From positions 327-64,326 of the IMG/VR virus record IMGVR_UViG_3300015063_000004: a stretch of DNA of 64,000 nt. One strand, written 5' to 3'. The position numbers and the translations under genes are program-made. Below are positions 8,535 to 22,880 of the stretch, piece after piece. The notes below the pieces were generated by a model. The model was not told the origin of the DNA and searched no databases. It saw nothing but the letters and a program-made list of their open reading frames with translations. The stretch comes from a virus. Every line of letters begins with the position of its first letter. Position 1 is the first letter of the stretch.

Positions 8535-8545
8535 GGGTAGAATGC

Positions 8546-9123: not shown

Positions 9124-11423
9124 CAGACCTTTCGTCCGACCCGGCCGCTATTGAGCAATTTGTCGCGTCGCTATTCCGCTACGCCGATCCCGAGACGTTC
9201 ATTTCCCTCCGCACGTTTGACCAGCATGAGCGCGGAGGCGCAGCGGTCGCAATCGAGGGTGTCCGCGTAGGATCGGACCCGCGTGCCTTGGCCGGCAGGA
9301 TCACCAAGGCAGCCACCAAGGCGGCCAATATCGCCCCGCCAACCGTATTCGCCCCGCCCGTCGCGACCTTTGCAGGTCCGACCAAGGCGGCCACGGCTGA
9401 CCTAGCCAACGGGGTCGCAATCAGCGTTGAAATCGACACAGGCGACACCGCTGCCAAACGCCGCCGCCTCGAACACCTTCTCGGCCCGGTTACGGTGGCC
9501 GTCCATTCCGGCGGGGAGTGGACCGATCCGCAAACCGGGGAAATCCACCCCAAAGCCCATCTGCACTGGCGTCTATCGGAACCAACGCGCGAACCGGCCG
9601 ATCACGAAAAGCTGCGGCTCGCCCGCAAACTCGCCGCGCTGTTGGTGGATGCGGACGCCACCGCAGCCCCGCCCGTCCACCCCCTCCGCTGGCCTGGGTC
9701 GTGGAACCTGAAAGCGTCGCCCCGGCTCGCCACCATCGCGGCCGGCAACCCCGCGTCGGAAGTCCATCTTGAGGACGTGCTAGAGCGGCTACAGGAGGCC
9801 GTGGAGGCTGCCGGGGTCGGTGGCGTCAGTTCCGCCCCAAGAACCCCGGGCACGCCGCAGGCTCCCGTCGCCGCCCTTGCCTCGGCCATCCTGGCAATCC
9901 CCAATCCCGACCTATCCTGGGACGATTGGAACCGGATGGGAATGGCGATGTGGCGTGCCAGCGATGGTTGCCTGGAAGGGCTGCACGCATGGCAGGAGTG
10001 GTCCGCGAAATCCGCCAAGCACCACGACGCAACCTGCGTAGACCGATGGCACCATTTCACCATCTCGCCCCCTACCAAGATCGGGGCCGGCACTATTTTC
10101 CTTGAGGCCGGGCGCAACGGGTGGGAGCGGCACAGCAGCGATCCCCCGCCGGATATTGACGATCCTGGCTACCATGCCGCCATCGACCAAGCGGCCATGT
10201 CGGCCGGGGAATGGGCCGAGTTAGAGCAACGGGAGACTGGCACAGCCATCCCCGCGTCGCCGGAAGCCAAGGCGCAAGCCGGCAAGAACCTGCTCTGGCG
10301 TATCGACCAGCCGTGGGCCGAACAAGACATCCCGCTGCGGCCGTGGATCGCACGCGGATACCTCATGCGCCGATCCATCACGGTGGTCTCCGGTGCCGGT
10401 TCCGCAGGCAAATCAAGCCTTATGGTGGCGTGGGCAACCGCGCTCGCAATCGGCTGTAAATTCCACGGCTTACGGTCCAATGATCCAGTTCGCGTCGCAA
10501 CATACAACGTAGAGGATGACGGCGATGAACAGAAACGCCGCTTCTCCGCGATGTTGCAGCAATTGGAATGTCGCCACGATGCGCTAGGTGGCCGATTGGT
10601 GATCCTAGGACCGTCCCGCGTCGGCACGCTCCTACACACAACCCGAGACGGCGCGTTGCTCGTAAATACCCCCGTCATGGATGAACTGGAACAGTTCACA
10701 ATTGACTTTAAGCCTGACGTGCTAATCCTTGACCCTTTTGTGGAATTGCACGCCGCAGAGGAAAACGACAATACCGCCGTGCGCGCTGTAATGGCACGGT
10801 TTCGCGCAATGGCAATCGACCATGACCTTGCGCTCGTCCTGCTCCACCATTCCCGCAAAGGCGGCACCGACCCGGGCGATCCTGACAGCCTGCGGGGGGC
10901 ATCGGCCATTGTCGGGGCTGCCAGGGTCGCGTTGACCCTCAACGTGATGACACCGGAGGAAGCCGATACCGCCGGTATCCACAAAGACAAGCGCCGCAAT
11001 TACTTCCGGCTCGACGGCGCGAAAAACAACTACGCGCCAATAGAAGAAGCCGAATGGTTTGAGCGGCTTGAACGAAAACTCTCAAACGGCACTGAAACTG
11101 ATGGGGATGGCGTGGCCGTGGTCTGGCCGTGGAAGCCAGCCTCGCCATTCCGTGATCTTCCTACGCACGACATAAACCAAATCCTGGACCAAATCGCAGC
11201 CGCCGCACCGGACAATCTCTACGCCCCGGTTCGCAAAGGCCGCGACAATACGCGCTGGTGCGGCAACCTGCTGGTGCAGCACTGTGGCCTGACGCCAGGA
11301 CAGGCGAAAACCATCATCGACCAGTGGCTCCGCTCGGGCTTGCTTGCCACCGTTGAGTTCCGAAACGCGCATCGGGAACAACGGGCCGGGGTCGTCGTCG
11401 TGGACACGCACCGACCAAAATGA
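9120..11423 (+). CDS. Primase-helicase (RepB-like primase, PriCT-2-like domain, RepA/AAA_25-type helicase)
   Basis: EIDTGD...HSGG...HLHWRL; WDDWNRMGMA...WQEWS; GAGSAGKSS, LILDPF, LHHSRK, LRGASAI. Confidence 0.85.
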   Translation: MTDLSSDPAAIEQFVASLFRYADPETFISLRTFDQHERGGAAVAIEGVRVGSDPRALAGRITKAATKAANIAPPTVFAPPVATFAGPTKAATADLANGVAISVEIDTGDTAAKRRRLEHLLGPVTVAVHSGGEWTDPQTGEIHPKAHLHWRLSEPTREPADHEKLRLARKLAALLVDADATAAPPVHPLRWPGSWNLKASPRLATIAAGNPASEVHLEDVLERLQEAVEAAGVGGVSSAPRTPGTPQAPVAALASAILAIPNPDLSWDDWNRMGMAMWRASDGCLEGLHAWQEWSAKSAKHHDATCVDRWHHFTISPPTKIGAGTIFLEAGRNGWERHSSDPPPDIDDPGYHAAIDQAAMSAGEWAELEQRETGTAIPASPEAKAQAGKNLLWRIDQPWAEQDIPLRPWIARGYLMRRSITVVSGAGSAGKSSLMVAWATALAIGCKFHGLRSNDPVRVATYNVEDDGDEQKRRFSAMLQQLECRHDALGGRLVILGPSRVGTLLHTTRDGALLVNTPVMDELEQFTIDFKPDVLILDPFVELHAAEENDNTAVRAVMARFRAMAIDHDLALVLLHHSRKGGTDPGDPDSLRGASAIVGAARVALTLNVMTPEEADTAGIHKDKRRNYFRLDGAKNNYAPIEEAEWFERLERKLSNGTETDGDGVAVVWPWKPASPFRDLPTHDINQILDQIAAAAPDNLYAPVRKGRDNTRWCGNLLVQHCGLTPGQAKTIIDQWLRSGLLATVEFRNAHREQRAGVVVVDTHRPK

Positions 11424-11880: not shown

Positions 11881-12411
11881 ATGAGCGAGGTCGTGGAACG
11901 CGCAAGGCATCCTGGCGGGCGGCCAACGCTCTACCGCGACGTGTTCCCAGAACAGGCTTTCAAACTCGCGCTGCTCGGGGCTGATGATACCGAATTGGCA
12001 GATTTCTTCGGGGTGGTCGTCTCCACGATCTCGAATTGGAAAGTAGAGTATCCCGAGTTTATGGAAGCCATCGCGCGCGGAAAGGTTCAAGCCGACGCGG
12101 AAGTGGCTGAAAAGCTTTATCATCGCGCCAAGGGCTATTCGCATCCCGAGGTTCACGTTTCCAACTTTCAGGGCGATATCACGCTCACGCACCTGACCAA
12201 GCACTATCCGCCCGACACGCACGCTGCGTCGTTGTGGTTGCGTAATCGGCAGGGGTGGCGCTGGAAGGACAAGCAAAACGTTGAGACGGCCACGCTCGGC
12301 GCGGACGGGAAGCCGATTGACCCTCGGCCGCTGACTGCGGAGGAACGCGAGGCGCGGGCGCAGGCGCTGCTGAGCAAGGCGGCGCGGTTGCCGGCATCAA
12401 GTGTCGGCTGA
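11881..12411 (+). CDS. terS: Terminase small subunit
   Basis: GRPTLY...ELADFFGVVVSTISNWK...F.EAI.RGK; directly upstream of TerL. Confidence 0.88.
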   Translation: MSEVVERARHPGGRPTLYRDVFPEQAFKLALLGADDTELADFFGVVVSTISNWKVEYPEFMEAIARGKVQADAEVAEKLYHRAKGYSHPEVHVSNFQGDITLTHLTKHYPPDTHAASLWLRNRQGWRWKDKQNVETATLGADGKPIDPRPLTAEEREARAQALLSKAARLPASSVG

Positions 12412-13960
12412 CCCGTTCGCGGACGTGCTGCGGCAGTTTACGCCGCTGGTGATGCCAACGGCTGCGCAACTGGCGCAACTGCCCGAGCGCGAGTTTCTCG
12501 AAATCGAGGCGTATATCGAGGAGCGGGACCGGCTGGCTAAGGCGAGCAAGTTCTACCAGCTATACCCTGAGCATGGGCCGTTGCGGCGGGAGTTATACGC
12601 CAAGCACTGCCAGTTTTTCGCAGCGTCGGCCGATCACTCGGAACTGGCGCTAATAGCGGCGAACCGCTCCGGCAAGACAATGGCGGCGTGCTATGCGCTC
12701 GTTGCGCATTTGACCGGGCATTATCCGCCGTGGTGGACGGGGCGCCGGTTCAATCGTCCGATTATGGCCTGGGCGAGCGGCGTTGATACCAAGTCACTGC
12801 GCGAAAGCCTGCAGCCGCTGTTGCTGGGGCAGCCGGGCGCATTCGGGACGGGGTTGATACCGGGCAAGTTGCTGGTTGGCACGACGGCGCGTTCTGGTGT
12901 GCCGGAAGCGGTCGATACCGTGTCGATCATGCACGCGACGGGCGCGAAAAGCCGTCTCGTATTCAAAACGTATGACCAAGGGCGTGAAAGCTTCCAGGCG
13001 TCGCAGGTCGATGTGGTGATGTTCGATGAGGAACCACCGATTGCGATCTACAGCGAAGGCCTGACACGCACGATGTCCACGGTGCCGGGCGAGCCGTCCG
13101 GGCTGGTGCTGTGTTCGTTCACGCCGTTGCTTGGGCTGTCTGGCGTCGTGCTGTCGTTCATGCCGGGCAGCGAGCGGATCGAGGGCGGTCTGGCCGGCGG
13201 CAAGCATGTTACGTGGATCGAGTGGTCAGAGGTCGCGCATCTGTCCGATGCGGACAAGGAGCGGCTGTCGGCTGCCTATCTGCCGCATGAGCGCGAGGCC
13301 CGAACCAAAGGGATTCCGTCCCTTGGCGCTGGTGCGATCTATCCGGTGCCAGAGGATGATATTATTTGCGATCCGTTTGAGATACCGTCCTATTTCCGCC
13401 ACGTTTATGCTCTCGACGTTGGGTGGAACCGCACCGCGTGTCTGTGGGGCGCATACGATTACGAGACGGATTGCCTTTATTTGTATTCGGAATACTACCG
13501 TGGGCAGGCTGAGCCTGCGGTTCACGCGCAGGCGATCCAGTCGCGGGGTAAATGGATACCAGGGGTTGTCGATCCTGCGGCGCGGGGGCGTGCCTCGACC
13601 GACGGGGAGCAACTGTTGGCGACGTATAGCAGCCTCGGGTTGGTGCTGACGCCGGCCAATAACGCGGTCGAGATGGGTATTTACGAGGTATGGTCGCGGC
13701 TATCGACTGGGCGGATAAAGGTTTTCAAAACGTTGCAGAATTTCCGGCAGGAGTATCGGATTTACCGGCGCGACGAAAAGGGAAAGATCGTGAAGGAAAA
13801 CGATCATTTGATGGATGATTTGCGCTACCTGTGCATGTCGGGCATCGACCTATCCGCGCCGCGTCCGGCCGAGTTGTGGCCCGAACGGCGGCGCTTTCCG
13901 GCAACGCAGCGCGCGCAGGAGTATAGTCCGATGGCTGCGGCGTATGAGGTGGGGCGATGA
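12401..13960 (+). CDS. terL: Terminase large subunit (P22-like)
   Basis: AANRSGKT, MFDEEPP, ALDVGW, DPAA, DHLMDDLRY. Confidence 0.93.
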   Translation: MSADPFADVLRQFTPLVMPTAAQLAQLPEREFLEIEAYIEERDRLAKASKFYQLYPEHGPLRRELYAKHCQFFAASADHSELALIAANRSGKTMAACYALVAHLTGHYPPWWTGRRFNRPIMAWASGVDTKSLRESLQPLLLGQPGAFGTGLIPGKLLVGTTARSGVPEAVDTVSIMHATGAKSRLVFKTYDQGRESFQASQVDVVMFDEEPPIAIYSEGLTRTMSTVPGEPSGLVLCSFTPLLGLSGVVLSFMPGSERIEGGLAGGKHVTWIEWSEVAHLSDADKERLSAAYLPHEREARTKGIPSLGAGAIYPVPEDDIICDPFEIPSYFRHVYALDVGWNRTACLWGAYDYETDCLYLYSEYYRGQAEPAVHAQAIQSRGKWIPGVVDPAARGRASTDGEQLLATYSSLGLVLTPANNAVEMGIYEVWSRLSTGRIKVFKTLQNFRQEYRIYRRDEKGKIVKENDHLMDDLRYLCMSGIDLSAPRPAELWPERRRFPATQRAQEYSPMAAAYEVGR

Positions 13961-14408: not shown

Positions 14409-14617
14409 GCGATTACCCAACTCTGGACCGTCTAGTAACCCGTATCATGCGAGGTGGCGGCGCCGATCCGGCGTTATGGCAGGTATCGCAGGAAGATTAC
14501 GAATTGGCCGACCGCGAACTGGCAGAACAGCGCAAACGGGCGGGAATGCCGGTGCTTCATAGCGGCGAGAATGGCGGTTTGATGCTGTGCGGTCGCGGGT
14601 TGGAAGTGGTGCGATGA
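14405..14617 (+). CDS. Hypothetical protein
   Basis: ATGA overlaps at both ends. Confidence 0.55.
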   Translation: MSDYPTLDRLVTRIMRGGGADPALWQVSQEDYELADRELAEQRKRAGMPVLHSGENGGLMLCGRGLEVVR

Positions 14618-16479
14618 GCGACGCGCCCGCCACCGACTACCAAGAGCGTCGCCGCAAGGGTTCGTCGCCGATCGACGGGTCATCGGCTGCTCGCCTAGCG
14701 CGGCAGCCGGCGCGGCCGAAGCCGGCGCGGCGTGCGGCTGACCCCGACTGGAAGCGCATGCGCGGCCACGTCGAGGCGCGGCTCAACATGCTGCGGTCGT
14801 GGCGACTGTCGTGGATGCAGCACTGGCAATTGCTAGAGGCGTATATCCTGCCGAGGCGCGGTGCGTTCATCAATACGTCGATGCCCACGCCAAACACGAT
14901 GATCCGTGGTGCGGTCATCAACCAAAACATCCTCGATCCGACCGGCACGCAGGCGATGCGGATTTGTGCGGCTGGGCTGATGAGCGGCCTCATGTCGCCG
15001 GGGCGGCCGTGGTTCAAGCTGAAGCCGGCGCTGTTTCCGCGCGATCAGGCCGACGCTGCGGCTGCTGCGTGGTTTGAGGAGGTCGAGGACCGGCTGTATC
15101 AGGTGATGGCGCGCAGCAATTTCTATGACGCTGGCGCGCAGATGTTTGAGGATTTGACGGTCTTTGGGACCGCGCCTGAGTTGATTTACGAGGATGATCG
15201 GGACGTTATCCGGTGCTATACGGCGTGCCCGGGCGAGTATTTCCTGGCGGTCGGGCCGGATGGCCGGATCAATGGGCTGTATCGGATGTTCGTGTGGACT
15301 GTCGCACAGATGGTGGAGTTCTTCGAGTTGGAGAACTGCCCGCGCGACGTGCAGGAATTGTGGAGGTCGAAGGGCGCGAGCCTTGAAATTGAGAAGATCG
15401 TTGCGCACGCGCTGGAACCTAATTTCCCGATAGCTGAGGGGAGTGGCAGCGAGGTCGGCGTTGTGCCGGGTGGGTTCGCGTGGCGCGAGTGCTATTGGGT
15501 GTGGGGTGCAGCGAGCGATTGGCCGCTGGCGATGTCGGGGTTCAATGAGCCGCCGCACGTTTGCCCGCGGTGGGCGACGACGAGCAATGATCCTTATGGG
15601 CGCTCGGCTGGAATGGACGTGCTGCAAGATATCATGCAGTTGCAGGTCGAGACCGGGCGCAAGGCTGAAGCGATCCAAAAGATGGTTCGGCCGCCGATGT
15701 TGGCCAGCATTGCGCTCAAGAACGAGCCTACGTCCACGATCCCGGGCGGCATTACGTTCGTGGCGCAACTTGGACCGGAGCAGGGGATGCGGCCGGTTTA
15801 CACGGTCAATCCTGAAATCCGTGAGATGATGGAGGATTTGAAGGAAATCCAGACGCGGATTAAGACCGGGTTTTTCAACGATCTGTTTCTGATGATCGCG
15901 GAAGCCGGGAAGGACATGACGGCGTATGAGGTCGCACAGCGGCAGCAGGAGAAGCTGCAAGTGCTGGGACCGATTACGGAGCGTTGGCAGAACGAATTTG
16001 GCTCGCCTGCGATCAAGCGCATTTTTCGCATCATGGAGCGGAAGGGGCTGTTGCCGCCGCTGCCGCAGTCGTTGCATGGGGTGCCGCTGGGGATTGAGTA
16101 TGTGTCGCTGCTGGCGATGGCGCAGCGTGTGGCGGCGACGGCGAGTATGGAGCGGTTTGCGCAGGTCACGGGCAACCTGGCTGGGATTTATCCCGAGGCT
16201 CGGGCGATGTTGAAGCCGGGGCCATTTCTGCGCGAATATGGGCAGTTGATCGGGGTTCCGTCGACGGTGATGGGGACGGACGATGATGTGATGGCGGCGA
16301 TGCAAGCCATCCAGAAGCAGCAGCAGATGGCGCAGGCGGCGCAGCTTGGGGCTACGGCGGTGCAGGGCGCGCAGCAGTTGTCGCAGACGGATGTGGGCGG
16401 GGGCGTCAATGCCTTGCAGGTGGCGTTGGGGCGTGGTGGCGGCGGTGGATCGCCGCCGGCTGCGGCGAACGCGGCATGA
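14614..16479 (+). CDS. Portal (head-to-tail connector), T7/BPP-1-like
   Basis: LAAGLMSG...PWF-type motif, DLTVFGT, PYGRS, MTAYEVAQRQQEKLQVLGP, IEYVSLLAMAQ. Confidence 0.93.
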   Translation: MSDAPATDYQERRRKGSSPIDGSSAARLARQPARPKPARRAADPDWKRMRGHVEARLNMLRSWRLSWMQHWQLLEAYILPRRGAFINTSMPTPNTMIRGAVINQNILDPTGTQAMRICAAGLMSGLMSPGRPWFKLKPALFPRDQADAAAAAWFEEVEDRLYQVMARSNFYDAGAQMFEDLTVFGTAPELIYEDDRDVIRCYTACPGEYFLAVGPDGRINGLYRMFVWTVAQMVEFFELENCPRDVQELWRSKGASLEIEKIVAHALEPNFPIAEGSGSEVGVVPGGFAWRECYWVWGAASDWPLAMSGFNEPPHVCPRWATTSNDPYGRSAGMDVLQDIMQLQVETGRKAEAIQKMVRPPMLASIALKNEPTSTIPGGITFVAQLGPEQGMRPVYTVNPEIREMMEDLKEIQTRIKTGFFNDLFLMIAEAGKDMTAYEVAQRQQEKLQVLGPITERWQNEFGSPAIKRIFRIMERKGLLPPLPQSLHGVPLGIEYVSLLAMAQRVAATASMERFAQVTGNLAGIYPEARAMLKPGPFLREYGQLIGVPSTVMGTDDDVMAAMQAIQKQQQMAQAAQLGATAVQGAQQLSQTDVGGGVNALQVALGRGGGGGSPPAAANAA

Positions 16480-16832
16480 GCATGGACCTGAGCGAACGCG
16501 AGGCTGCTGGTCATTGCGATCATTGGCTTGGCATGGCTGCGGACTGCGCGCGTGCTGCCGTGACGGACATGCGGGCGCCGTTGCGGGTTGTTCCGGCGCT
16601 GAAATGCGCGCAGGAGGCGGCGCGTGGGATTGGGCTGCTGCGTAGCGACGAGCGGTGGCTGTCGGTGGCGCGTGGGTTGCAGCCGCTGATTGATCTCGGG
16701 CAGCCGAAGGGGTGGCGGCCGTATGATCTACGGTGGGCGCAGATGGGGGCGCATCTGGATCGGGTGCGGGCGCTGGTGGTTAGGGAGTTTGGCGCGGCTC
16801 GGACTGGGGCGGTGCAGGTGGTATCTCGTTGA
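16476..16832 (+). CDS. Hypothetical protein
   Basis: ATGA coupling with portal. Confidence 0.65.
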   Translation: MSMDLSEREAAGHCDHWLGMAADCARAAVTDMRAPLRVVPALKCAQEAARGIGLLRSDERWLSVARGLQPLIDLGQPKGWRPYDLRWAQMGAHLDRVRALVVREFGAARTGAVQVVSR

Positions 16833-17068
16833 CATGTGAAGCACCTAAACTCCTGCGCGTGCCTAGGAGATTTACGAGCATCGGGGATGTATTGGGATGC
16901 GCTGGTCAGATGGACCTACCGAACGTGATGGTTCTGGCAGAACTCGAAGACGGCTCGGTGGTATTTCTGACATCATCTGACCATACTTTGGCATCGGCGA
17001 ATTGGCTTTTGGATCGCGCGAAGGGAGTGCTATCGTCTAGCGGTGGAGGTTTGGGGTTGGTCGAATGA
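16829..17068 (+). CDS. Hypothetical protein
   Basis: TTG start overlapping the upstream stop. Confidence 0.5.
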   Translation: MTCEAPKLLRVPRRFTSIGDVLGCAGQMDLPNVMVLAELEDGSVVFLTSSDHTLASANWLLDRAKGVLSSSGGGLGLVE

Positions 17069-17114
17069 AGATGTTTTATGCAGATAGGTGGGGAATGATC
17101 CAACGAATGACCTA

Positions 17115-17226
17115 GGGACATTCGCGCAAGGCTTGCCTCTCTAACTCGGACCTCCTGCGGTCTCTTGGGTCCGAGGGTGGGCAAACCCGCTTCCCGTAAA
17201 TACTCACGGGTAAGGCAAGCCATCCC
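17115..17226. ncRNA. Candidate structured RNA (four-way junction), unassigned
   Basis: Outer 9-bp stem 17130-38/17213-21 enclosing stems 17145-52/17168-75, 17177-81/17186-90 and 17193-97/17206-10. Confidence 0.45.
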
Positions 17227-17249
17227 TTTTTGGAATCATCGGGGGCTAC

Positions 17250-18848
17250 ATGACATCTGGAATACGTCTATCGGTCCTGCTGCCTACGTTGGGGCGGCCG
17301 GACAAGTTGCGTCGTGCCGTGGATAGCCTTGTGGGGACGGGGCTGCCTCCGGAAGTGGAAATCATCATCGGGTTGGACGCGGAAGATACCGCATCGCGGG
17401 GTGCGTGCCTGACGCTGGGCAAGCGTCGTGGTGTGCGGGTGGTCGAGGCGAGGGCTGCGGTCACGTTGGGACGGAAGGTAAACCAACTGGCAGCCAAGGC
17501 TCGGGGCGACATTCTGATGATGTTTGCCAACGACATGGCGGTTCGGGCGGATGATTGGCACGAGCGCGTGATTGCGGCGGTTGATTTGGGATCGGCGCGT
17601 GTGTTCTGCCTTGATGACCCGTTGAACGCGGGTTTTGCATCGTTTCCGGTATTGCGGCGTGATGTGGTGGACACCGTGGGCTTCATGGCGGCGCCGTGGT
17701 TTCCGTTCTGGTTTACCGATACCTGGTGGGATGAAATCGGGGAATTGTGCGGCGAGGTGCGGCCGATCGAGGTCGGGCTGGAATATCTCGACGGTCGCGG
17801 CGGCACGATGGCGATGCGTGATTTGAAGTTTTGGGCGGAGTTTTTCGAGGCGACGCGCGGGATGCGTGTTGATGCGGCTCGCAAGTTGGGCGCGGATGAG
17901 GGTGCGCTGGCGCGTCGAGCTGCGGAGTGTGAGGCCAAGGTGAGGCATTTGCGCGCGGATGCGTTTGTCACGCAGTGGGAGGCGAACGTGGAGGGCGAGC
18001 CGACTGAGCGATATCAGCAGGCTCGGAAGGATGCGGAGAAGTTCCTAGCGCAGATACAGCCTGAGCGTCTGCCGGGGCCGCGCGTGGCGGTGTGTGTGCC
18101 ATCTGTGGGGCAATGGCAGGCTCGGATGGCGACGTGCTTGGCCGGGCTGACGGCGTATTCGGCGCTGGCGGGGATCGGGGTGGGGATCATTGGTCTGGAA
18201 GGGTCGATGATCTCGAAGCAGCGGAACGATATCGTGGATATGGCGATGCGGACTGATGCGGATTACGTATTCTTTGTCGATAGCGATATGTGGTTTCCAC
18301 CGGATGCGCTGGTGCGGCTGTTGAAGCGCGAGAAGGATATCGTGGGGGCTACCTACTGCAAGCGCGTGCCGCCATATGAGACATTGGGGCGGATGCTTGG
18401 GGCGGTGCCGACTGATGCTGAGTTGGCGCAGGGTGGATTGTGGGAGGCGGAATGGCTGCCGGCTGGGCTATTGCTGGTGCGGATGGACGTGTTCCGCCGC
18501 ATGGCGTGGCCGTGGTGGCATGAAAGCTACCGCTGGCCTGGGGAAAGTGGGTGCGAGGTTGTGAAGTCGTTCCTGCGCGCCAATTTCTCCGATGTGCCGA
18601 GCGATGGGGTGCTGGCGTGTTTGGATGGGACGGAATTGGGGCTGTGGTTGGATGCGGTTTGGGATCGTGATAAGGGCGGCGAGTGGCGGTATGTGTCTGA
18701 GGATATCCGGTTTATGCGGAACGCTCGGAAGGCTGGTTATCAGATATGGTGCGACAGCGGACTGACGGCTGATAGTCGCCATATTGGCACGCAAGAGGTG
18801 ACATGCACGCTTCCGGTGCCGGAGGAGGAGAAGTTAGCGGCGGAGTAG
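17250..18848 (+). CDS. Tandem two-domain GT-A (family 2-like) glycosyltransferase
   Basis: LSVLLPTLGRP...FANDM; second domain VAVCVPS...YVFFVDSDMWFPPDALVRLL...DIVGATY. Confidence 0.8.
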   Translation: MTSGIRLSVLLPTLGRPDKLRRAVDSLVGTGLPPEVEIIIGLDAEDTASRGACLTLGKRRGVRVVEARAAVTLGRKVNQLAAKARGDILMMFANDMAVRADDWHERVIAAVDLGSARVFCLDDPLNAGFASFPVLRRDVVDTVGFMAAPWFPFWFTDTWWDEIGELCGEVRPIEVGLEYLDGRGGTMAMRDLKFWAEFFEATRGMRVDAARKLGADEGALARRAAECEAKVRHLRADAFVTQWEANVEGEPTERYQQARKDAEKFLAQIQPERLPGPRVAVCVPSVGQWQARMATCLAGLTAYSALAGIGVGIIGLEGSMISKQRNDIVDMAMRTDADYVFFVDSDMWFPPDALVRLLKREKDIVGATYCKRVPPYETLGRMLGAVPTDAELAQGGLWEAEWLPAGLLLVRMDVFRRMAWPWWHESYRWPGESGCEVVKSFLRANFSDVPSDGVLACLDGTELGLWLDAVWDRDKGGEWRYVSEDIRFMRNARKAGYQIWCDSGLTADSRHIGTQEVTCTLPVPEEEKLAAE

Positions 18849-19010
18849 TCGGCCTAGTTCGTAAGGGCTGGCAGCCCAGGAAAACCGAGTTGTTGGTTGT
18901 GTCGGTTTGGGGGAATCCGGTTTCGGCGCGGCATTAGCCGGATCGTATTCCAGGGCGGCGGCGATGCGCTCTAGGGCGTGGATCAGTCTCTCGGCTTGGG
19001 GTTCGGTCAT
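18834..19010 (-). CDS. Small hypothetical protein
   Basis: ATGA coupling with the lipoprotein gene. Confidence 0.5.
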   Translation of the reverse strand: MTEPQAERLIHALERIAAALEYDPANAAPKPDSPKPTQPTTRFSWAASPYELGRLLRR

Positions 19011-19243
19011 GTCGAAATCCACCCTTTCCCGCGCATGCATGTCTTGAAGATGCGTAGTGAAACTGCCGCGTCCATCAGCGTGACGATGCGACTGCCGTTG
19101 CTGCGCGATTGGCACTCGGACTGCGTTTCGTAAAAGTCTTGCTCGGTTTGGGTTGTATCGGGTGCGCCGTGCCTATCGACGTGGTGATAGACGGGCGTGC
19201 ATCCTGCGAGTGTGGTGGCAGCGATGATGGCGACGTATTTCAT
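19007..19243 (-). CDS. Small lipoprotein
   Basis: MKYVAIIAATT-LAGC lipobox; C-terminal C...CMRGKGW. Confidence 0.72.
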   Translation of the reverse strand: MKYVAIIAATTLAGCTPVYHHVDRHGAPDTTQTEQDFYETQSECQSRSNGSRIVTLMDAAVSLRIFKTCMRGKGWIST

Positions 19244-19971
19244 GGAACCCTCCAAAACATTCCCGCGCCGTCGATGTCGCGGATATCAGCCTCGATGCTG
19301 TTTGCGGCCCGGTAGTCTCTGACCGCAGCGCGGCAGGCCGGCAGGTTGTAGTCGTCCACGATCACGAAACCGCCGGGCGATACCTTTTGGTATAGGGCAG
19401 CGAGCGCGTCGGTCGTCGAGGCATACATATCGCCGTCGAGGCGCAGGACTGCCAGACGGTCTATCTTGGCTGCGGGGAGCGTGTCGGCGAACCATCCCTT
19501 GATGAGCCTAACCTGGCGATCGAGAAGGTCGAATTTCTCGAAATTGTCCAGAACGGTGTGCGACGTGACGGCGAGTTGCTTGTAGGTGTGGTGCTTGTCG
19601 CCGGCATCGCGGATGTCGGTTGGGGGAGGCAGGCCGGCGAAGCTGTCGGCCACCCATACGATGCGGTCGGTTATGCCGTAGGCTTTGAGAATGCCGCGCA
19701 TGTAGATGCACGCGCCGCCGCGCCAGACGCCGGTTTCGATCAGGTCGCCGGGGATGTTGTCGCGCAGGACGGTTTCGACGCAGTGGCGGATATTTGCCAT
19801 GCGCTTGTCGCCGATCATGGTCATGGCTTGGCTGGGCCAGTCTGCGCCAACGGCGCGTCGTTTGGCGTCAAAGGTTGGGGCTGACCACGGATCAAACGGG
19901 GCGTCGCCGTAGATTTGGTTTGTGAGGGTGGCGGCCAAGAGGTCGAGGTATAGGGTGCGGGTGCAGTTCAA
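19240..19971 (-). CDS. TylF/MycF/NovP-family O-methyltransferase
   Basis: GDLIETGVWRGG, WVADSFAGLP, IKGWFADTLP, LRLDGDMYAST, VIVDDY. Confidence 0.93.
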   Translation of the reverse strand: MNCTRTLYLDLLAATLTNQIYGDAPFDPWSAPTFDAKRRAVGADWPSQAMTMIGDKRMANIRHCVETVLRDNIPGDLIETGVWRGGACIYMRGILKAYGITDRIVWVADSFAGLPPPTDIRDAGDKHHTYKQLAVTSHTVLDNFEKFDLLDRQVRLIKGWFADTLPAAKIDRLAVLRLDGDMYASTTDALAALYQKVSPGGFVIVDDYNLPACRAAVRDYRAANSIEADIRDIDGAGMFWRVP

Positions 19972-20144
19972 CGCCGCACCGCTGCCATCTGACTGTCGAT
20001 AATCCGCCGCATGACATCGCTGCGGGTGATGGCCTGCTGCCGGCCCACGCGGTCAAGAAACTCGACGTGATGCGACCCGATATAGACGACGCAGCGGATG
20101 CTTTCGGGGTAGGTGCTGGCGGATAGGCTGGCGGTTTCAGACAT
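19968..20144 (-). CDS. Ribbon-helix-helix (CopG/Arc-like) regulator, 58 aa (not in the ORF track)
   Basis: RCVVYI strand, HHVEFLDRVGRQQ helix, TRSDVMRRIIDS helix; TGA overlaps the TylF start. Confidence 0.65.
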   Translation of the reverse strand: MSETASLSASTYPESIRCVVYIGSHHVEFLDRVGRQQAITRSDVMRRIIDSQMAAVRR

Positions 20145-20180
20145 TGGTTATTTGCCAGTTTGCAGCCAATTTAGCCCCCT

Positions 20181-20211
20181 TGGTGCCTGTGCCGGGCACA
20201 AGTTAGCACCA
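20181..20211. promoter_or_regulatory. Nested palindrome (operator candidate) in the divergent spacer
   Basis: TGGTGC..GCACCA enclosing TGTGCC-G-GGCACA. Confidence 0.4.
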
Positions 20212-20221
20212 TGCGCTAGTC

Positions 20222-20584
20222 GTGGTCAAATTTAGTGGTATCGCGGTTCCTGTGAGTGACCGCGCGCCGCATCCCGAACCGGAGCAGCCCTACGATTCCG
20301 CCGATCCTGAGCAAGTGGAAAGGCGGCAGATAGCGGCAGCAAGGCGGGAAAAGGCAAAGCTAGATGTGGTCGCAGCGTTGATGGCCTCGCCCGATGGTCG
20401 GGCATGGGTTTGGAGTGAACTGGTGGCGGCGAGCATTTTCACCACGACGTTTGTTCCGGGCGATCCGATGGCTTCCGCGTTTTCGGAAGGTGGTCGCAAC
20501 GCCGGGCTTCGGCTTCTGGCGCAGGTCATGCGAGCCGCGCCGGATGCCTATGTTCTGATGCAGCGAGAGGCCGGCAATGAGTGA
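20222..20584 (+). CDS. Conserved pre-scaffold protein (BPP-1 Bbp19-like)
   Basis: LMASPDGRAWVW...SAFSEGGRNAGLRLL; synteny. Confidence 0.7.
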   Translation: MVKFSGIAVPVSDRAPHPEPEQPYDSADPEQVERRQIAAARREKAKLDVVAALMASPDGRAWVWSELVAASIFTTTFVPGDPMASAFSEGGRNAGLRLLAQVMRAAPDAYVLMQREAGNE

Positions 20585-21302
20585 GACAGCGGCACCGCCG
20601 CCGGACCCGGTAGCTGCCGCCCCCGTTGCGGCGGCGCCCGCGCCTGAGCCGGCTGTTGTCCCCGCAGCGGCCGTTGAGCAGGCGCCTGCCGCCGCAACAC
20701 CTGAACCCGTTGCAGTTGCCCCGGCTATCCCGGAACAGTCGCTTCTTTCAACGCCGCCGGACCCAAACGCCGAACCGACTATCCCTGTCGGCCCTACGCC
20801 CGTCGCCTACGAGGCATTTACCGCTCCTGAAGGCGTCACGCTCGATCAGGATGCGGTCAAGCCATACGCGGAAATCCTCGGCCAAGCCGGGGTTCCGCAG
20901 GACGTAGCGCAGTCGCTGGTCAACAAATACATCGAACAGCAGCAGGCCGATCGGGCGCGCGCGCTGGATGCTTGGGCGCAGCAGCGTTCGACCTGGCGCG
21001 ATCAGTTCATCAAAGACCCTGAAATCGGCGGCAACCGGCAGGCAACCACGCTGGCGCGGGCGGCCGAGGCAATCGACCGTTTCTCGGGGTCGCCGGAGAA
21101 CGCCGCAGCGGTTCGCAAGGCGCTGAACGATACGGGCGCAGGGGACCATCCGGCCTTGATCCGGGTATTTGCCAACATGATGAAGGCGCTGAGCGAAGGG
21201 CGTCCGGTTCCGGCTGTGATGGCAAAGGCGCCGTCGCAGGTATCCGGGTCGCGCAGCCGATACAACAATTCCCCCTCCTTGCCACTGAACGGAGCCGCCT
21301 GA
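20577..21302 (+). CDS. Capsid scaffolding/assembly protein
   Basis: Pro/Ala-rich N-terminus, DPEIGG, LNDTGAGDHPALIRVF; upstream of the capsid gene. Confidence 0.82.
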   Translation: MSETAAPPPDPVAAAPVAAAPAPEPAVVPAAAVEQAPAAATPEPVAVAPAIPEQSLLSTPPDPNAEPTIPVGPTPVAYEAFTAPEGVTLDQDAVKPYAEILGQAGVPQDVAQSLVNKYIEQQQADRARALDAWAQQRSTWRDQFIKDPEIGGNRQATTLARAAEAIDRFSGSPENAAAVRKALNDTGAGDHPALIRVFANMMKALSEGRPVPAVMAKAPSQVSGSRSRYNNSPSLPLNGAA

Positions 21303-21303
21303 C

Positions 21304-22341
21304 ATGGCCTTTATCACCCTGCTAGATTGGGCACGCCGGGTTGGCCCGGACGGCAACATTGACGAAATCGCCGAGCTGCTGTCGCAGTGCAACGACATCT
21401 ACAAGGATATGTTGTGGGTGGAGTCGAACCTGCCGACCGGGCACAAGGCGACGATCCGCACCGGCCTACCGCAGGGCACGTGGCGCCTCGATTACCAGGG
21501 CGTCGGCTATACCAAGTCCACCACGGCGCAGATTACCGCCGGCTGGGGCCAGCTTACCGCCTTCAGTCAGATCGACAAGAAGGTGGCCGACATGAACGCG
21601 CAGACGGCGCGGCTTCGTGTGTCGGAAGACAACGCGCATCTTGAAGGCCTGTCGCAGCAGATGGCGACGGCGTTCTTCTACGCGAACGAGGCGACGAACC
21701 CGACGCAGTTCACCGGCTTCTCGCCGCTGTTCAACACGATTACCACCACCACGGCGCAGAACGCGGTCAACGTTCTGAACGGCGGCGGCACCGGGTCCAG
21801 CAACGCCTCGCTATGGCTTATCGGCTGGGGCGACCGCACCGTTTACTCGATCTTCCCGAAGGGCATGAAAGCCGGCCTCAGTTTCGAGGATCGCGGCGAC
21901 GTGGTGCCGGCCTATGACAGCGCGGGCAATCCGTATCTGGCCTATACGTCCTACTTCGAGTGGAACGCCGGCCTGATGGTGGAGGACTGGCGCTTCGTGT
22001 CGCGCCTTGCCAACATCGACACCACCACCGCTGGCCTTCAGGGGCCGACGCCGCCCGACCTGTTCGCCGCCATGTCGAAGATGGTCGTGCGTATGCCGAC
22101 CAGCACGCGGCGCCTCTCGGGCATCACCGAGACCGACGCGCCGGACGAGCCTTCGCCGGGAACGAGCCAGATTTTCTACTGCAACCGGTCGGTGCGCGAA
22201 TATTTGGATATTCAAGCAATTCGCGACAAGAACGTGCTGCTGAAGCCGACCGAGTATGCCGGCGAGCCGGTCCTGGAGTTCAGAGGCGCACCCATACGCG
22301 TTTGCGATGCGCTACTCAACACCGAGGCAACGCTTACCTGA
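21304..22341 (+). CDS. Major capsid protein (BPP-1-like)
   Basis: TLLDWARR...IAELLSQ.N...TGHKATIRTGLP.GTWR; FRGAPIRVCDALLNTEA. Confidence 0.92.
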   Translation: MAFITLLDWARRVGPDGNIDEIAELLSQCNDIYKDMLWVESNLPTGHKATIRTGLPQGTWRLDYQGVGYTKSTTAQITAGWGQLTAFSQIDKKVADMNAQTARLRVSEDNAHLEGLSQQMATAFFYANEATNPTQFTGFSPLFNTITTTTAQNAVNVLNGGGTGSSNASLWLIGWGDRTVYSIFPKGMKAGLSFEDRGDVVPAYDSAGNPYLAYTSYFEWNAGLMVEDWRFVSRLANIDTTTAGLQGPTPPDLFAAMSKMVVRMPTSTRRLSGITETDAPDEPSPGTSQIFYCNRSVREYLDIQAIRDKNVLLKPTEYAGEPVLEFRGAPIRVCDALLNTEATLT

Positions 22342-22376: not shown

Positions 22377-22880
22377 TTGGCTATCTTCGACAAGACGCTT
22401 TTGTTCTTCGGCAACAGCCCGTATCAGTCGGTCAGCGACTATACCACGCTGGTTGGTGTGACCGCATCGGGCCTGGCGTCGGCGGTCATCGACCTGTCGG
22501 TGGCTCGTGACATGGGCATCGGCGATGGTGAGGCGGTTCCGAAGGTGGCGCTTTACACCGGGGCTGCGATTACCAGTTCGTCGGCGTCGCTCACGCTCAA
22601 CATTCAGTTTCAGGGGTCCACCGATTCGACCACCTGGACCACGTATGTTGAGACGGGGGCGAACACCACGGCGAGTTTCCCCGCCAATTCTAAGATTTTC
22701 GCCATTGACGTGCCGCATCGTTCGCAGGGCGCGGCGCTTCCGCGCTATTACCGGCTGAACGTGGCGCTTGGCACGGCGGCATCGGCTGGGCTGTCCACCG
22801 GGTCGCTGTTCGGCGGGATTGTGATCCAGCGGACGGATAATCCGGTGGGGCTTTATCCAAGTGGATTCAGTGTGGTCTGA
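22377..22880 (+). CDS. Capsid cement/decoration protein (Bbp16-like)
   Basis: IFDKTLLF, S.VIDL, LNIQFQGSTD, LPRYYRLN; follows MCP. Confidence 0.78.
   Translation: MAIFDKTLLFFGNSPYQSVSDYTTLVGVTASGLASAVIDLSVARDMGIGDGEAVPKVALYTGAAITSSSASLTLNIQFQGSTDSTTWTTYVETGANTTASFPANSKIFAIDVPHRSQGAALPRYYRLNVALGTAASAGLSTGSLFGGIVIQRTDNPVGLYPSGFSVV

What the first reader, a model, noticed from the sequence alone, without database searches (positions are those of the whole stretch)
17250..20211. Double glycosyltransferase and antisense TylF O-methyltransferase operon embedded between portal and scaffold
Seen: a two-domain GT-A protein in the late direction, convergent with a translationally coupled RHH-TylF-lipoprotein-58 aa operon that has its own palindromic site. 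Established: TylF/MycF/NovP enzymes O-methylate sugar hydroxyls (macrolides, novobiocin, mycobacterial glycopeptidolipids), and some mycobacteriophages glycosylate their virions using GT genes in structural operons. Inference: a phage pathway building a methylated glycan, either on the virion or on the host surface for superinfection exclusion. Opposite orientations suggest the glycosylation and methylation steps are separately timed.
Basis: partly seen in the sequence, partly recalled or inferred. Interest (0 to 1): 0.8.

Follow-up and report, generated by a model that had tools for sequence, protein, structure and literature searches.

The report
Phage head-operon sugar-and-methyl cassette
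An uncultured 64-kb phage, probably of alphaproteobacteria, carries a fused double sugar-transferase and a sugar-methylating enzyme between its portal and capsid genes; they most likely coat the virus particle with a methylated glycan, as shown so far only for mycobacteriophages, but the target is inferred, not shown.

Summary
At 17250-18848 (+) lies a 532-aa protein with two GT-A glycosyltransferase domains. Converging on it are four translationally coupled minus-strand genes: RHH-like, TylF O-methyltransferase, lipoprotein and a 58-aa ORF. All sit in a 3.7-kb island between the portal and the Bbp19/scaffold/capsid genes of an epsilon15/BPP-1-type podovirus with no integrase.

The double GT always occupies this slot in about 11 related lineages. 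TylF lies next to it in 4 of them and in none of about 42 relatives without the double GT. In one lineage TylF is co-directional. In an unrelated P22-coat phage a homologue of the N-domain is fused to TylF. The four TylFs are not one clade (AU p 0.019). A glycan-plus-methylation pathway is therefore well supported.

The palindrome is not conserved. "Separate timing" is not a general feature.

The closest known system is mycobacteriophage Corndog gp35-38, with the same portal-to-protease placement; its methyltransferase also matches TylF. The GTs are not detectably homologous.

The target (virion protein, about 0.5) is inferred from late-operon placement, the lack of an integrase and the lack of enzymes that make hydroxylated bases. 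This scan has noted similar head-operon GT/MT cassettes on other DNA. I rate it a new variant of a known kind, of moderate interest.

The parts
14587..16479 (+). Portal (head-to-tail connector); left border of the island
   Evidence: PF12236, 440 bits; phrog_332
16476..16832 (+). 118-aa ORF of unknown function, conserved upstream of the double GT in some relatives
   Evidence: tblastn: 50% identity in L002, 42% in L189; no Pfam hit
16829..17068 (+). 79-aa ORF of unknown function
   Evidence: Listed as an ORF; no Pfam hit; no relatives found
17069..17249 (+). 181-nt non-coding gap before the GT gene; it folds into a multibranch structure ending in a T5 run
   Evidence: MFE -64.4 kcal/mol, z -1.59, 12 of 200 shuffles fold as well; no Rfam match; relatives such as L002 have no gap here
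17250..18044 (+). Double GT, N-terminal GT-A (GT2) domain, aa 1 to about 265, with the invariant FPxWxxDTW motif
   Evidence: PF00535, 50.4 bits; invariant D95, D123, P152, W154, D157-T158-W159; model pLDDT above 90 over most of the domain; Foldseek hits to TarP, RmlT, AvpGT and the first domains of PmHS2/K4CP
18057..18809 (+). Double GT, C-terminal GT-A domain, aa about 270-520, with an invariant DSD motif
   Evidence: phrog_1574, E 9e-21; invariant D344, D346, S483-E484-D485, H511; domain model pLDDT 87.7, pTM 0.83; Foldseek hits to ColGalT1, LH3, STIV A197, mimivirus R699, Mnn9 and PBCV-1 A64R
18810..18848 (+). Disordered C-terminal tail of the GT ending in KLAAE, then the stop codon
   Evidence: pLDDT below 50 at aa 515-532; most two-domain homologues end in AAE or AAD, and C-domain-only homologues end in xAxM
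18834..19010 (-). 58-aa ORF, last gene of the antisense cassette; overlaps the GT 3' end by 15 nt
   Evidence: ATGA overlap with the lipoprotein stop; weak phrog_5355 match, E 3.5e-5; no relatives in the loci
19007..19243 (-). 78-aa predicted lipoprotein (signal peptide with lipobox LAGC)
   Evidence: Sequence read; ATGA overlap with the TylF stop and GGAGGG upstream; no Pfam or PHROG hit; not found in relatives
19240..19971 (-). TylF/MycF/NovP-family SAM-dependent sugar O-methyltransferase, 243 aa, TTG start
   Evidence: PF05711, 341.7 bits, profile positions 41-263 of 264; E 7.5e-81 to PDB 4cdz, 3e-76 to MycF, 2.4e-74 to NovP, with LRLDGDxY and VDDY conserved
19968..20144 (-). 58-aa RHH-like protein, first gene of the antisense cassette and positional homologue of RHH_1 genes in relatives
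   Evidence: No Pfam hit of its own; 3 of 7 aligned positional homologues match RHH_1, best E 1.5e-6; present at this position in relatives with or without TylF
20188..20200 (.). 13-bp palindrome in the 77-nt divergent intergenic region
   Evidence: One exact match in the window; 23 of 100 shuffles have at least one; not conserved in relatives
20222..20584 (+). Bbp19-like head-module protein; right border of the island
   Evidence: PF25181, 36.6 bits; phrog_528
20577..21302 (+). Scaffold-like protein (the Bbp18 position; the PHROG is annotated 'protease')
   Evidence: phrog_458, E 1e-32; synteny with BPP-1 bbp18
21304..22341 (+). Major capsid protein (epsilon15 gp7 type); candidate glycan acceptor
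   Evidence: PF20911, 368.7 bits
22377..22880 (+). Bbp16-like capsid cement protein, rich in Ser/Thr; candidate glycan acceptor
   Evidence: PF21190, 27.3 bits; sequence

Best explanation
This is a phage-encoded glycan-building cassette carried in the head-morphogenesis operon of a probably virulent epsilon15/BPP-1-type podovirus.

The 532-aa protein is a soluble bifunctional enzyme with two GT-A domains that both look catalytically competent. Each domain adds a sugar from a nucleotide-sugar donor, making at least a disaccharide and possibly a repeating chain. This is the way dual-GT-A enzymes such as PmHS2, K4CP and PBCV-1 A064R work.

TylF then O-methylates a sugar hydroxyl with SAM. The substrate is probably a deoxyhexose such as rhamnose, either on the glycan (possibly as a terminal cap) or on the nucleotide sugar beforehand.

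The most likely acceptor is a virion protein made at the same time (capsid protein, Bbp16-like cement protein or a tail protein), giving a methylated glycan coat like that of mycobacteriophage Corndog.

The RHH-led antisense cassette is a swappable accessory slot. In this lineage it often holds glycan-tailoring genes. The lipoprotein and the 58-aa ORF are unrelated cargo of that slot.

Shown here: the enzyme families, the intact motifs, the placement and the GT-TylF linkage across phages. Inferred: donor sugars, order of steps, acceptor and timing.
For: Enzymes:
- Family assignments and invariant catalytic motifs.
- Two confident GT-A domains in the models.
- Dual-GT-A structural neighbours, both polymerising and protein-glycosylating: PmHS2, K4CP, LARGE1, LH3/ColGalT1, mimivirus R699, PBCV-1 A64R.

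Linkage of GT and TylF:
- Adjacent in the window, L002, L003 and L102.
- Never seen in about 42 clade members without the double GT.
- A 492-aa fusion of a GT N-domain homologue with TylF, followed by another GT2, lies 2 kb downstream of a P22-type coat gene in L013.
- The four TylFs are not monophyletic (AU p 0.019), which implies repeated recruitment.
- In L189 the same antisense slot holds a DegT aminotransferase, a class I methyltransferase, a GT61 and a sulfotransferase-like gene.
- L004 and L009 carry sugar-nucleotide synthesis genes nearby.
- The best viral structural match of the C-domain is a phage FkbM-methyltransferase fusion protein.

Virion as target:
- The GT is co-oriented with and embedded in the portal-scaffold-capsid operon in every relative, including a Burkholderia prophage.
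- There is no integrase in a record rated complete.
- There is no thymidylate-synthase homologue and no TET/JBP. Known DNA glycosylation starts from hydroxylated bases made by thymidylate-synthase homologues (PMC13326640).
- Corndog carries an O-methyltransferase plus three GTs in the same portal-to-protease position (PMC4351075). Its gp35 matches PF05711 at 48.7 bits and its gp38 matches GT25. Its virions are reported to be glycosylated (Freeman et al. 2023, as cited in PMC12363180).
Against: - No direct evidence for any acceptor.
- The GT domains show no detectable sequence homology to Corndog gp36-38.
- A capsid-protein loop that looked GT-specific is also present in GT-less relatives.
- The complex prediction for GT plus capsid protein gave no verdict.
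- The double GT is accessory in the wider clade: about 30 relatives have none in this slot.
- A distant C-domain homologue in Pelagibacter phage HTVC027P lies between primase and helicase, not among head genes.
- In the window TylF is antisense and shares an operon with a lipoprotein, a layout typical of morons that act on the host.
- The same slot carries an Acb2/Tad1-like gene in L008, so it is not restricted to glycan genes.
Confidence: 0.5

Rival explanations
1. Host-envelope modification. The GT and TylF act at the cytoplasmic face on a lipid-linked host glycan (O-antigen, core, EPS or CPS). They alter the receptor so that infected cells or debris no longer adsorb phage (superinfection exclusion or progeny protection). 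The co-transcribed lipoprotein would be a second exclusion factor.
For: - Epsilon15 and phiV10-type phages are known, from general knowledge, for O-antigen conversion.
- TylF lies in an antisense, RHH-led, moron-like cassette together with a lipoprotein.
- The N-domain's structural neighbours include enzymes that act on wall teichoic acid and on undecaprenol-linked glycans: TarP, RmlT and a PglI-like enzyme.
- The closest cellular TylFs are in Alphaproteobacteria such as Rhodomicrobium, at 66% identity.
Against: - No integrase is present, so there is no lysogen to convert.
- The GT sits inside the late head operon in all relatives, including a prophage, where that operon would be silent in the lysogen.
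- No flippase, GtrA or other membrane component is present. The only hydrophobic stretch of the GT (aa 296-314) is a core helix and strand in the model.
- In L013 the GT-TylF fusion also lies in a structural module.
Confidence: 0.2
2. Two unrelated functions. The double GT modifies the virion (or something else). TylF is independent moron cargo that methylates a host glycan or a small molecule and does not act on the GT's product.
For: - TylF is on the opposite strand, in a hypervariable slot that holds an Acb2/Tad1-like anti-defence gene and an HNH in L008, and only small ORFs in L101, L005 and L009.
- Most double-GT lineages (7 of about 11) lack TylF.
Against: - A GT N-domain-TylF fusion protein exists in L013.
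- TylF is co-directional and immediately downstream of the GT in L102.
- TylF occurs only beside the double GT within the clade.
- TylF is polyphyletic, which implies repeated recruitment to the same neighbour.
Confidence: 0.12
3. DNA hypermodification. The GT glycosylates a modified base in phage DNA just before packaging, and TylF methylates that sugar.
For: - DNA sugar transfer is reported to occur late, before packaging (abstract of PMC13326640).
- A distant C-domain homologue lies between primase and helicase in HTVC027P.
- The phage encodes a C5-methylase-like gene and an N6/N4 methylase.
- A weak viral structural hit is named a TET-associated GT (rank 48).
Against: - No thymidylate-synthase homologue and no TET/JBP in the complete record.
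- No nucleotide-metabolism genes were found among the ORFs scanned.
- The placement is in the head module, not the replication module.
Confidence: 0.05
4. Small-molecule inactivation. The enzymes glycosylate and methylate an anti-phage natural product or nucleoside analogue.
For: - The characterised TylF, MycF and NovP enzymes act on glycosylated antibiotics (by the depositors' names).
- One structural neighbour of the N-domain (AvpGT, 9jn3) glucosylates nucleoside analogues (PMC11959488).
Against: - Placement in the head operon.
- The dual-GT architecture is typical of glycan builders.
- The companions in relatives are sugar-nucleotide synthesis and glycan-tailoring genes.
Confidence: 0.03

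Closest known systems
Mycobacteriophage Corndog (cluster O) gp35-gp38 virion-glycosylation cassette
   Same: - Same genomic slot: methyltransferase plus glycosyltransferase genes between the portal and the protease/scaffold-capsid genes (PMC4351075).
- Corndog gp35 matches the same Pfam family, TylF PF05711 (48.7 bits), and aligns with the window's TylF over the LDxDxY...D motif region (32% over 69 aa).
- Corndog gp38 matches GT25, the family of the best solved structural neighbours of the window's C-domain.
- Corndog virions are reported to be glycosylated (Freeman et al. 2023, as cited in PMC12363180).
   Different: - The GTs are not detectably homologous.
- Here two GT domains are fused in one protein instead of three separate GTs.
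- TylF here is full length (243 aa against 194 aa), antisense, and in an RHH-led cassette.
- The phage is a podovirus with an epsilon15/BPP-1 head module and a probably alphaproteobacterial (Gram-negative) host, not an actinobacterial siphovirus.
- There is no experimental evidence here.
Chlorovirus PBCV-1 A064R (capsid-protein glycan synthesis)
   Same: The enzyme logic is two glycosyltransferase activities plus a sugar O-methyltransferase working on one glycan of the virus's own capsid protein. A064R has two rhamnosyltransferase domains and a domain that methylates O-2 of the terminal rhamnose (PMC7019647). The L013 GT-TylF fusion followed by a GT2 mirrors this. The PBCV-1 A64R domain is a weak structural neighbour of the C-domain (ranks 31-39).
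   Different: A064R belongs to a eukaryotic giant virus and acts on N-linked glycans. Its methyltransferase domain is fused and was not compared with TylF here. In the window TylF is a separate gene. No sequence homology was shown.
Bifunctional dual-GT-A glycan polymerases (Pasteurella PmHS2, E. coli K4CP, LARGE1)
   Same: Two GT-A domains in one soluble polypeptide of about 530-600 aa. These are the top Foldseek matches to the whole model (E 1e-12 to 1e-10).
   Different: Identity is only 10-12% and TM scores are about 0.3, because the domain arrangement differs. Polymerising activity is not shown here. Those enzymes make capsular or matrix polysaccharides, not virion glycans.
TylF/MycF/NovP sugar O-methyltransferases (PDB 4cdz, 4x7u, 2wk1; mycobacterial MtfC)
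   Same: Full-length homology: E 7.5e-81 to 2.4e-74 against solved structures, and 54% identity to M. avium MtfC. The conserved acidic motifs are kept.
   Different: Those enzymes act in antibiotic or glycopeptidolipid pathways of Actinobacteria. This one is phage-encoded. tblastn found no TylF in 50,697 deposited phage records at E 1e-5, apart from a misfiled M. avium record.

Membership tests
GT2 / GT-A glycosyltransferase (N-terminal domain) | Match to PF00535 above the curated cut-off | tested here: met
   50.4 bits against 23.3, aa 8-120
GT2 / GT-A glycosyltransferase (N-terminal domain) | GT-A fold | tested here: met
   Model pLDDT above 90 over most of aa 10-150; Foldseek probability 1.0 to TarP, RmlT, SpsA-type enzymes and the first domains of PmHS2/K4CP
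GT2 / GT-A glycosyltransferase (N-terminal domain) | DXD metal / nucleotide-sugar motif | tested here: inconclusive
   The window has N94-D95-M, and so do its three closest homologues. Most homologues have D-D-Y. D95 is invariant, and the acidic D43/D46 cluster is nearly invariant
GT-A glycosyltransferase (C-terminal domain) | GT-A fold with DXD and a C-terminal metal-binding His | tested here: met
   D344-S-D346, S483-E484-D485 and H511 are invariant in 21 sequences; domain model pLDDT 87.7, pTM 0.83; Foldseek probability 1.0 to ColGalT1, LH3, STIV A197 and Mnn9. The role of each residue is inferred from family knowledge
GT62 / Anp1-Mnn9 mannosyltransferases (C-terminal domain) | Match to PF03452 above the curated cut-off | tested here: not met
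   17.8 bits against 28.8, only aa 319-368. It is not filed as GT62
TylF/MycF/NovP O-methyltransferase family | Full-length match to PF05711 and to solved family members | tested here: met
   341.7 bits, profile positions 41-263 of 264; E 7.5e-81 to 2.4e-74 to 4cdz, MycF and NovP
TylF/MycF/NovP O-methyltransferase family | Conserved acidic motifs (LDGDxY and DDY) used for metal binding and catalysis | tested here: met
   D179, D181, D206 and D207 are invariant in 22 homologues and aligned in 4cdz. Their role as metal ligands is from family knowledge
TylF/MycF/NovP O-methyltransferase family | The substrate is a sugar hydroxyl | not testable with these tools
   Needs an enzyme assay
Corndog-type phage virion-glycosylation cassette | GT and methyltransferase genes between the portal and the protease/scaffold-capsid genes | tested here: met
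   Window layout; Corndog layout (PMC4351075)
Corndog-type phage virion-glycosylation cassette | Methyltransferase of the same family | tested here: met
   Corndog gp35 matches PF05711 at 48.7 bits; BLASTP E 4e-10 to the window's TylF
Corndog-type phage virion-glycosylation cassette | GTs homologous to Corndog gp36-38 | tested here: not met
   hhalign probability at most 3.4% (the templates were single sequences, so this is a weak test)
Corndog-type phage virion-glycosylation cassette | Virion proteins carry GT-dependent glycans | not testable with these tools
   Needs virions and mass spectrometry
Serotype-converting (lysogenic conversion) glycosylation modules | Temperate phage with an integrase; membrane components of the GtrA/GtrB or flippase type | tested here: not met
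   No PF00589 or PF00239 match in the complete record. Only one GT gene in the genome. The one hydrophobic stretch of the GT is a core helix and strand in the model
Phage DNA glycosylation systems | An enzyme that makes a hydroxylated base (thymidylate-synthase homologue or TET/JBP) | tested here: not met
   No PF00303 and no PF12851 match at E 0.1 or better
Ribbon-helix-helix (CopG/Arc) regulators (19968-20144) | Match to an RHH Pfam model | tested here: inconclusive
   The window protein has no hit at E 1 or better. 3 of 7 aligned positional homologues match RHH_1 (best E 1.5e-6), and the strand-helix-helix pattern aligns
Bacterial lipoprotein (19007-19243) | Signal peptide followed by a lipobox with an invariant Cys | tested here: met
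   The first 15 residues run MKY, then a hydrophobic stretch, then L-A-G-C. No dedicated predictor was available

The most novel reading that the evidence does not exclude
A whole lineage of roughly 60-kb podoviruses, probably of Alphaproteobacteria, coats its capsid with a phage-made glycan. The chain is built by a single bifunctional (possibly polymerising) dual-GT-A enzyme and is diversified between close relatives by a swappable antisense tailoring cassette: TylF methylation, or amino-sugar, GT61 and sulfotransferase-like genes. This would be a viral equivalent of O-antigen diversification. The enzyme's conserved disordered C-terminal peptide (AAE in two-domain forms, xAxM in one-domain forms) would dock it onto the assembling head.
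Probability: 0.2. Interest if true: 0.8.

Novelty: new variant of a known kind. Interest (0 to 1): 0.55.

Why it matters
Virion glycosylation by phage-encoded enzymes has been shown experimentally only for a few mycobacteriophages, where it shields particles from antibodies.

If this cassette does the same, the trait extends to podoviruses of Gram-negative hosts in the environment. The enzymes are largely unrelated, and the neighbouring tailoring genes vary in a patchy, exchangeable way between relatives. That would point to selection on the particle surface for stability, adhesion, or escape from recognition.

It also gives:
- a compact two-gene system (dual GT plus TylF) for making methylated glycans on a defined protein;
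- a cultivable entry point, the Burkholderia sp. Ax-1724 prophage, which carries the one-domain form.

TylF-family enzymes were not found in 50,697 deposited phage genomes by tblastn (apart from a misfiled M. avium record), so their repeated recruitment next to phage GTs is a new observation for that family.

Tried and rejected
1. Capsid-protein acceptor loop. A 15-17-aa Ser/Thr/Pro-rich insertion (window capsid protein, about aa 272-290) and a Thr-rich 3-aa insertion looked specific to GT-bearing phages when compared with BPP-1, phiV10 and DC33. With 80 more clade members, both are present in relatives without a GT in the slot as well. Rejected as evidence.

2. Complex prediction of GT-GT with the capsid protein: score 0.00, no verdict. 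It counts neither for nor against.

3. Homology of the GT domains to Corndog gp36-38: none found by hhalign.

4. Palindrome as a conserved operator: single copy, frequent by chance, absent in relatives. A recurring TTAGCAC-like word in the intergenic regions of several relatives was seen but not tested.

5. Collagen-like tail protein (45254-46141) as a BclA-like Gly-x-Thr acceptor: its repeats are GKDGRDG-type with few Thr. Not supported.

6. DNA-modification enzymes (ThyA-like, TET/JBP) and integrases: none.

7. Near-identical or protein-level relatives in deposited phages: no megablast hit. Only distant hits to the C-domain, at 24-29%.

8. Rfam scan of 16400-20700: nothing. Promoter/terminator scan: nothing useful.

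9. The Freeman et al. 2023 paper itself is not held. Its result is cited second-hand.

Full report
**What the record is**

The window is nearly all of a 64,552-bp IMG/VR virus record that CheckV rates 100% complete. It has an epsilon15/BPP-1-type head module:
- large terminase at 12401-13960;
- T7-type portal at 14587-16479 (PF12236);
- Bbp19-like protein at 20222-20584;
- scaffold-like protein at 20577-21302;
- gp7-type major capsid protein at 21304-22341;
- Bbp16-like cement protein at 22377-22880.

It encodes a GcrA-like protein, an N6/N4 DNA methylase, a PriCT/AAA_25 primase-helicase and RecT. No tyrosine or serine recombinase was found, so it is probably virulent.

The host is probably an alphaproteobacterium. 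The evidence is the GcrA gene, the closest cellular TylF homologues in Rhodomicrobium (66% identity), and the fact that relatives' contigs were binned with Beijerinckiaceae, Stellaceae, Rhodospirillales and Ancalomicrobiaceae MAGs. No deposited phage is close: megablast found nothing, and the best capsid-protein identity is 45%.

**Checking the observation**

The 532-aa ORF at 17250-18848 has two GT-A domains.
- The N-terminal domain matches GT2 (PF00535, 50.4 bits).
- The second domain, aa 270-520, matches phrog_1574 (E 9e-21) and, below threshold, Anp1.
- In an alignment of 21 homologues the second domain keeps an invariant D-S-D, S-E-D and a late His.
- The first domain keeps D95 and the motif FPxWxxDTW. 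The window and its three nearest homologues read N-D-M where the others read D-D-Y.
- The AlphaFold model (pLDDT 83.7) and a separate model of the second domain (pLDDT 87.7, pTM 0.83) both give GT-A folds.

On the other strand, four genes are translationally coupled, as read directly from the sequence.
- The stop of the 58-aa first gene overlaps the TTG start of TylF (TTGA).
- The TylF stop overlaps the lipoprotein ATG (ATGA, with GGAGGG upstream).
- The lipoprotein stop overlaps the ATG of a 58-aa ORF (ATGA).
- That last ORF overlaps the 3' end of the GT gene by 15 nt.

TylF is a full-length family member (PF05711, 341.7 bits; E about 1e-80 to solved family members), and its acidic motifs are conserved.

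The first gene has no Pfam hit of its own. It aligns with positional homologues in relatives, 3 of 7 of which match RHH_1.

The 13-bp palindrome at 20188-20200 is real. However, it is single, 23 of 100 shuffles give such a match, and relatives lack it.

BPP-1 has one small gene between the portal and bbp19, and phiV10 has none. The 3.7-kb block is therefore an insertion in the head operon.

**Relatives**

The double GT is rare: 32 clusters among 5.8 billion. Wherever context is available it lies between the portal and the Bbp19/scaffold/capsid genes of roughly 60-kb phages (L002, L003, L004, L005-7, L008, L009, L101, L102, L113, L186, L189).

Among 80 further members of the capsid-protein clade (58-74% identity), the slot takes one of four states:
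- empty, about 30 loci;
- the second GT domain alone, about 12 loci;
- the fused double GT, about 11 lineages;
- the double GT plus TylF, 4 lineages.

The one-domain form also sits in this slot in a prophage on a 384-kb contig of Burkholderia sp. Ax-1724. The GT is thus an accessory gene of the head operon, not a core assembly gene.

**Is TylF linked to the GT?**

Five lines of evidence say yes.
- TylF lies immediately beside the double GT in the window, L002 and L003 (antisense) and in L102 (co-directional, directly downstream).
- TylF was not found in any locus of the clade that lacks the double GT: 4 of 11 against 0 of 42. Fisher p is 0.001, but the lineages are related, so this is indicative only.
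- In L013/L014, a phage with a P22-type coat protein, one 492-aa ORF fuses a homologue of the N-domain (33% identity over aa 3-266, PF00535) to a TylF domain (302.6 bits). Another GT2 follows it, and the block lies about 2 kb downstream of the coat gene.
- The TylFs of the four double-GT phages do not form one clade. Window and L002 group together, L003 groups with the fusion protein's clade, and L102 lies elsewhere. Forcing them together costs 32 log-likelihood units (AU p 0.019). TylF was therefore recruited or replaced next to this GT more than once.
- Neighbouring cargo in other relatives is also glycan chemistry. L189's antisense cassette holds a DegT aminotransferase, a class I methyltransferase, a GT61 and a sulfotransferase-like gene. 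L004 and L009 carry TPP-enzyme, epimerase/dehydratase, SDR and DegT genes. The best viral structural match of the second domain is a phage protein annotated as an FkbM methyltransferase fusion.

The slot is not exclusively glycan-related. L008 holds an Acb2/Tad1-like gene and an HNH there, and L101, L005 and L009 hold only small ORFs. The RHH-like gene heads the cassette whether or not TylF is present. The lipoprotein and the 58-aa ORF have no counterparts in relatives.

**What it most likely does**

Both GT domains look active, and the whole protein resembles bifunctional dual-GT-A enzymes. The matches include polymerases (PmHS2, K4CP, LARGE1) and protein-glycosylating enzymes (LH3/ColGalT1, mimivirus R699, PBCV-1 A64R), but only at the level of the generic GT-A fold: 10-15% identity and TM scores of 0.3-0.6.

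The simplest mechanism has two steps. Each domain adds one sugar, building a disaccharide or a repeating chain. TylF then methylates a sugar hydroxyl. This could happen on the finished glycan, perhaps as a terminal cap as in PBCV-1 A064R (PMC7019647). From general knowledge of the family, it could also happen on the nucleotide sugar beforehand.

The acceptor is not shown. I favour a virion protein for four reasons.
- The GT is co-oriented with and embedded in the late head operon in every relative, including a prophage, where that operon would be silent in the lysogen.
- The phage has no integrase.
- The genome lacks the thymidylate-synthase homologue or TET enzyme that makes the hydroxylated bases on which known DNA glycosylation starts (PMC13326640).
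- The one experimentally supported precedent has the same layout.

**Comparison with what is known**

Mycobacteriophage Corndog carries an O-methyltransferase (gp35), two GTs and an N-acetylglucosaminyltransferase (gp36-38) between its portal and capsid-protease genes. Its authors proposed methyl and glycan modification of the capsid (PMC4351075). Virion glycosylation of Che8, Corndog and Myrna was later reported (Freeman et al. 2023, cited in PMC12363180; the paper itself is not held).

I found that Corndog gp35 matches the TylF Pfam model (48.7 bits) and aligns with the window's TylF around the LDxDxY motif. I also found that gp38 matches GT25. The GTs themselves are not detectably homologous to the window's domains.

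So the window works like the Corndog cassette and shares its placement and its methyltransferase family. It differs in several ways:
- different GTs, fused into one protein;
- a full-length TylF in an antisense RHH-led cassette;
- a podovirus with an epsilon15/BPP-1 head module;
- a probably Gram-negative host.

This scan has already noted several head-operon GT/MT cassettes on other DNA, and those notes reach the same reading.

**Rivals**

Host-envelope modification is the main rival, at about 0.2. Evidence for it: the TylF cassette looks like a moron, includes a lipoprotein, and belongs to a phage type known for O-antigen conversion. Evidence against it: the missing integrase, the late-operon placement of the GT, and the fusion protein and co-directional arrangements.

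The other rivals and my estimates are:
- TylF is functionally independent of the GT, about 0.12;
- DNA glycosylation, about 0.05;
- small-molecule inactivation, about 0.03.

A caution for the main reading is that a distant homologue of the second domain in Pelagibacter phage HTVC027P lies between primase and helicase. Another distant homologue, in Microcystis phage Mel-JY34, lies directly after the capsid gene.

**Ideas that failed**

- A Ser/Thr/Pro-rich capsid-protein loop that seemed GT-specific turned out to be clade-wide.
- The complex prediction for GT plus capsid protein gave no verdict.
- The collagen-like tail protein is not of the Gly-x-Thr type.
It remains untested for the window itself.

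**Verdict**

- A phage glycan-plus-methylation pathway is well supported by comparative evidence.
- The virion as target is the best-supported inference, at about 0.5.
- This is a new variant of a known kind, and moderately interesting. It extends the Corndog-type arrangement to a very different phage and host, documents repeated GT-TylF recruitment including a fusion protein, and points to a cultivable prophage for testing.

Noticed in passing
window 18810-18845; homologues P0001-P0032: After a variable Pro-rich linker, the disordered C-terminus of the GT ends in a conserved short peptide. Most two-domain proteins end in (E)AAE or AAD, and C-domain-only proteins end in xAxM. The conservation holds across different downstream gene contexts, which suggests a docking motif.
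   Followed up: partly
L013 5221-6699 (also L014): A single 492-aa ORF fuses a GT2 domain, homologous to the window's N-domain, to a full TylF domain. A second GT2 follows at 6684-7775. The block lies about 2 kb downstream of a P22-type coat gene (1995-3203).
   Followed up: yes
L189 8416-13121 (minus strand): In a relative binned with a Stellaceae MAG, the antisense slot next to the double GT holds five genes: a DegT aminotransferase, a class I methyltransferase, a GT61, an unknown and a weak sulfotransferase-like protein.
   Followed up: partly
L008 9253-9609 (minus strand): The same antisense slot in another relative holds an Acb2/Tad1-hairpin-family (anti-CBASS/Thoeris sponge-like) gene and an HNH endonuclease. 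The slot is therefore a general accessory-gene hot spot headed by an RHH gene.
   Followed up: no
L196 (Burkholderia sp. Ax-1724, NZ_VWWL01000003.1) 5646-10850: A chromosomal BPP-1-like prophage of a cultured Burkholderia carries the one-domain GT (36% identity to the window's C-domain) between portal and Bbp19. This is a possible experimental system.
   Followed up: partly
window 17069-17249: The 181-nt non-coding gap before the GT gene folds into a multibranch structure followed by a T5 run (MFE -64.4 kcal/mol, z -1.59). There is no Rfam match, and the closest relatives have no gap here.
   Followed up: partly
L005 2295-4356; L008 1493-3057; L101 433-1982: In several relatives the large terminase is called as two ORFs (Terminase_6N and Terminase_6C). 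In L005 an HNH/NUMOD4 endonuclease gene lies between them. The window has a single 519-aa gene.
   Followed up: no
window 21304-22341 (capsid protein, about aa 272-290 and 146-150): The whole roughly 60-kb clade has a conserved 15-17-aa insertion (consensus S-G-I-T-E-T-D-A-P-D-E-P-x-P-G) and a Thr-rich 3-aa insertion in the capsid protein. Both are absent from BPP-1, phiV10 and DC33. They are not correlated with GT presence.
   Followed up: yes
L102 1388-3403: A 671-aa protein with a YadA_head adhesin domain lies between the terminase and portal genes of a relative.
   Followed up: no
L208 3493-4200 (Pelagibacter phage HTVC027P gp05); L209 4965-5660 (Microcystis phage Mel-JY34): Distant homologues of the C-domain (24-27% identity) lie in different contexts: between primase and helicase in HTVC027P, and directly after the major capsid gene in Mel-JY34.
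   Followed up: partly
window 20145-20221 and the equivalent intergenic regions of L002, L003, L005, L008, L101: A TTAGCAC-like word (twice as AGCACCCATC in L005) recurs in the divergent RHH/Bbp19 intergenic regions of several relatives. It could be a shared promoter or operator element.
   Followed up: no
window 17529-17537 (GT aa 94-96): The window and its three nearest homologues read N-D-M at the DXD position of the N-domain, where the other 17 homologues read D-D-Y. This does not track TylF presence: L101 has N-D-M without TylF, and L102 has D-D-Y with TylF.
   Followed up: partly
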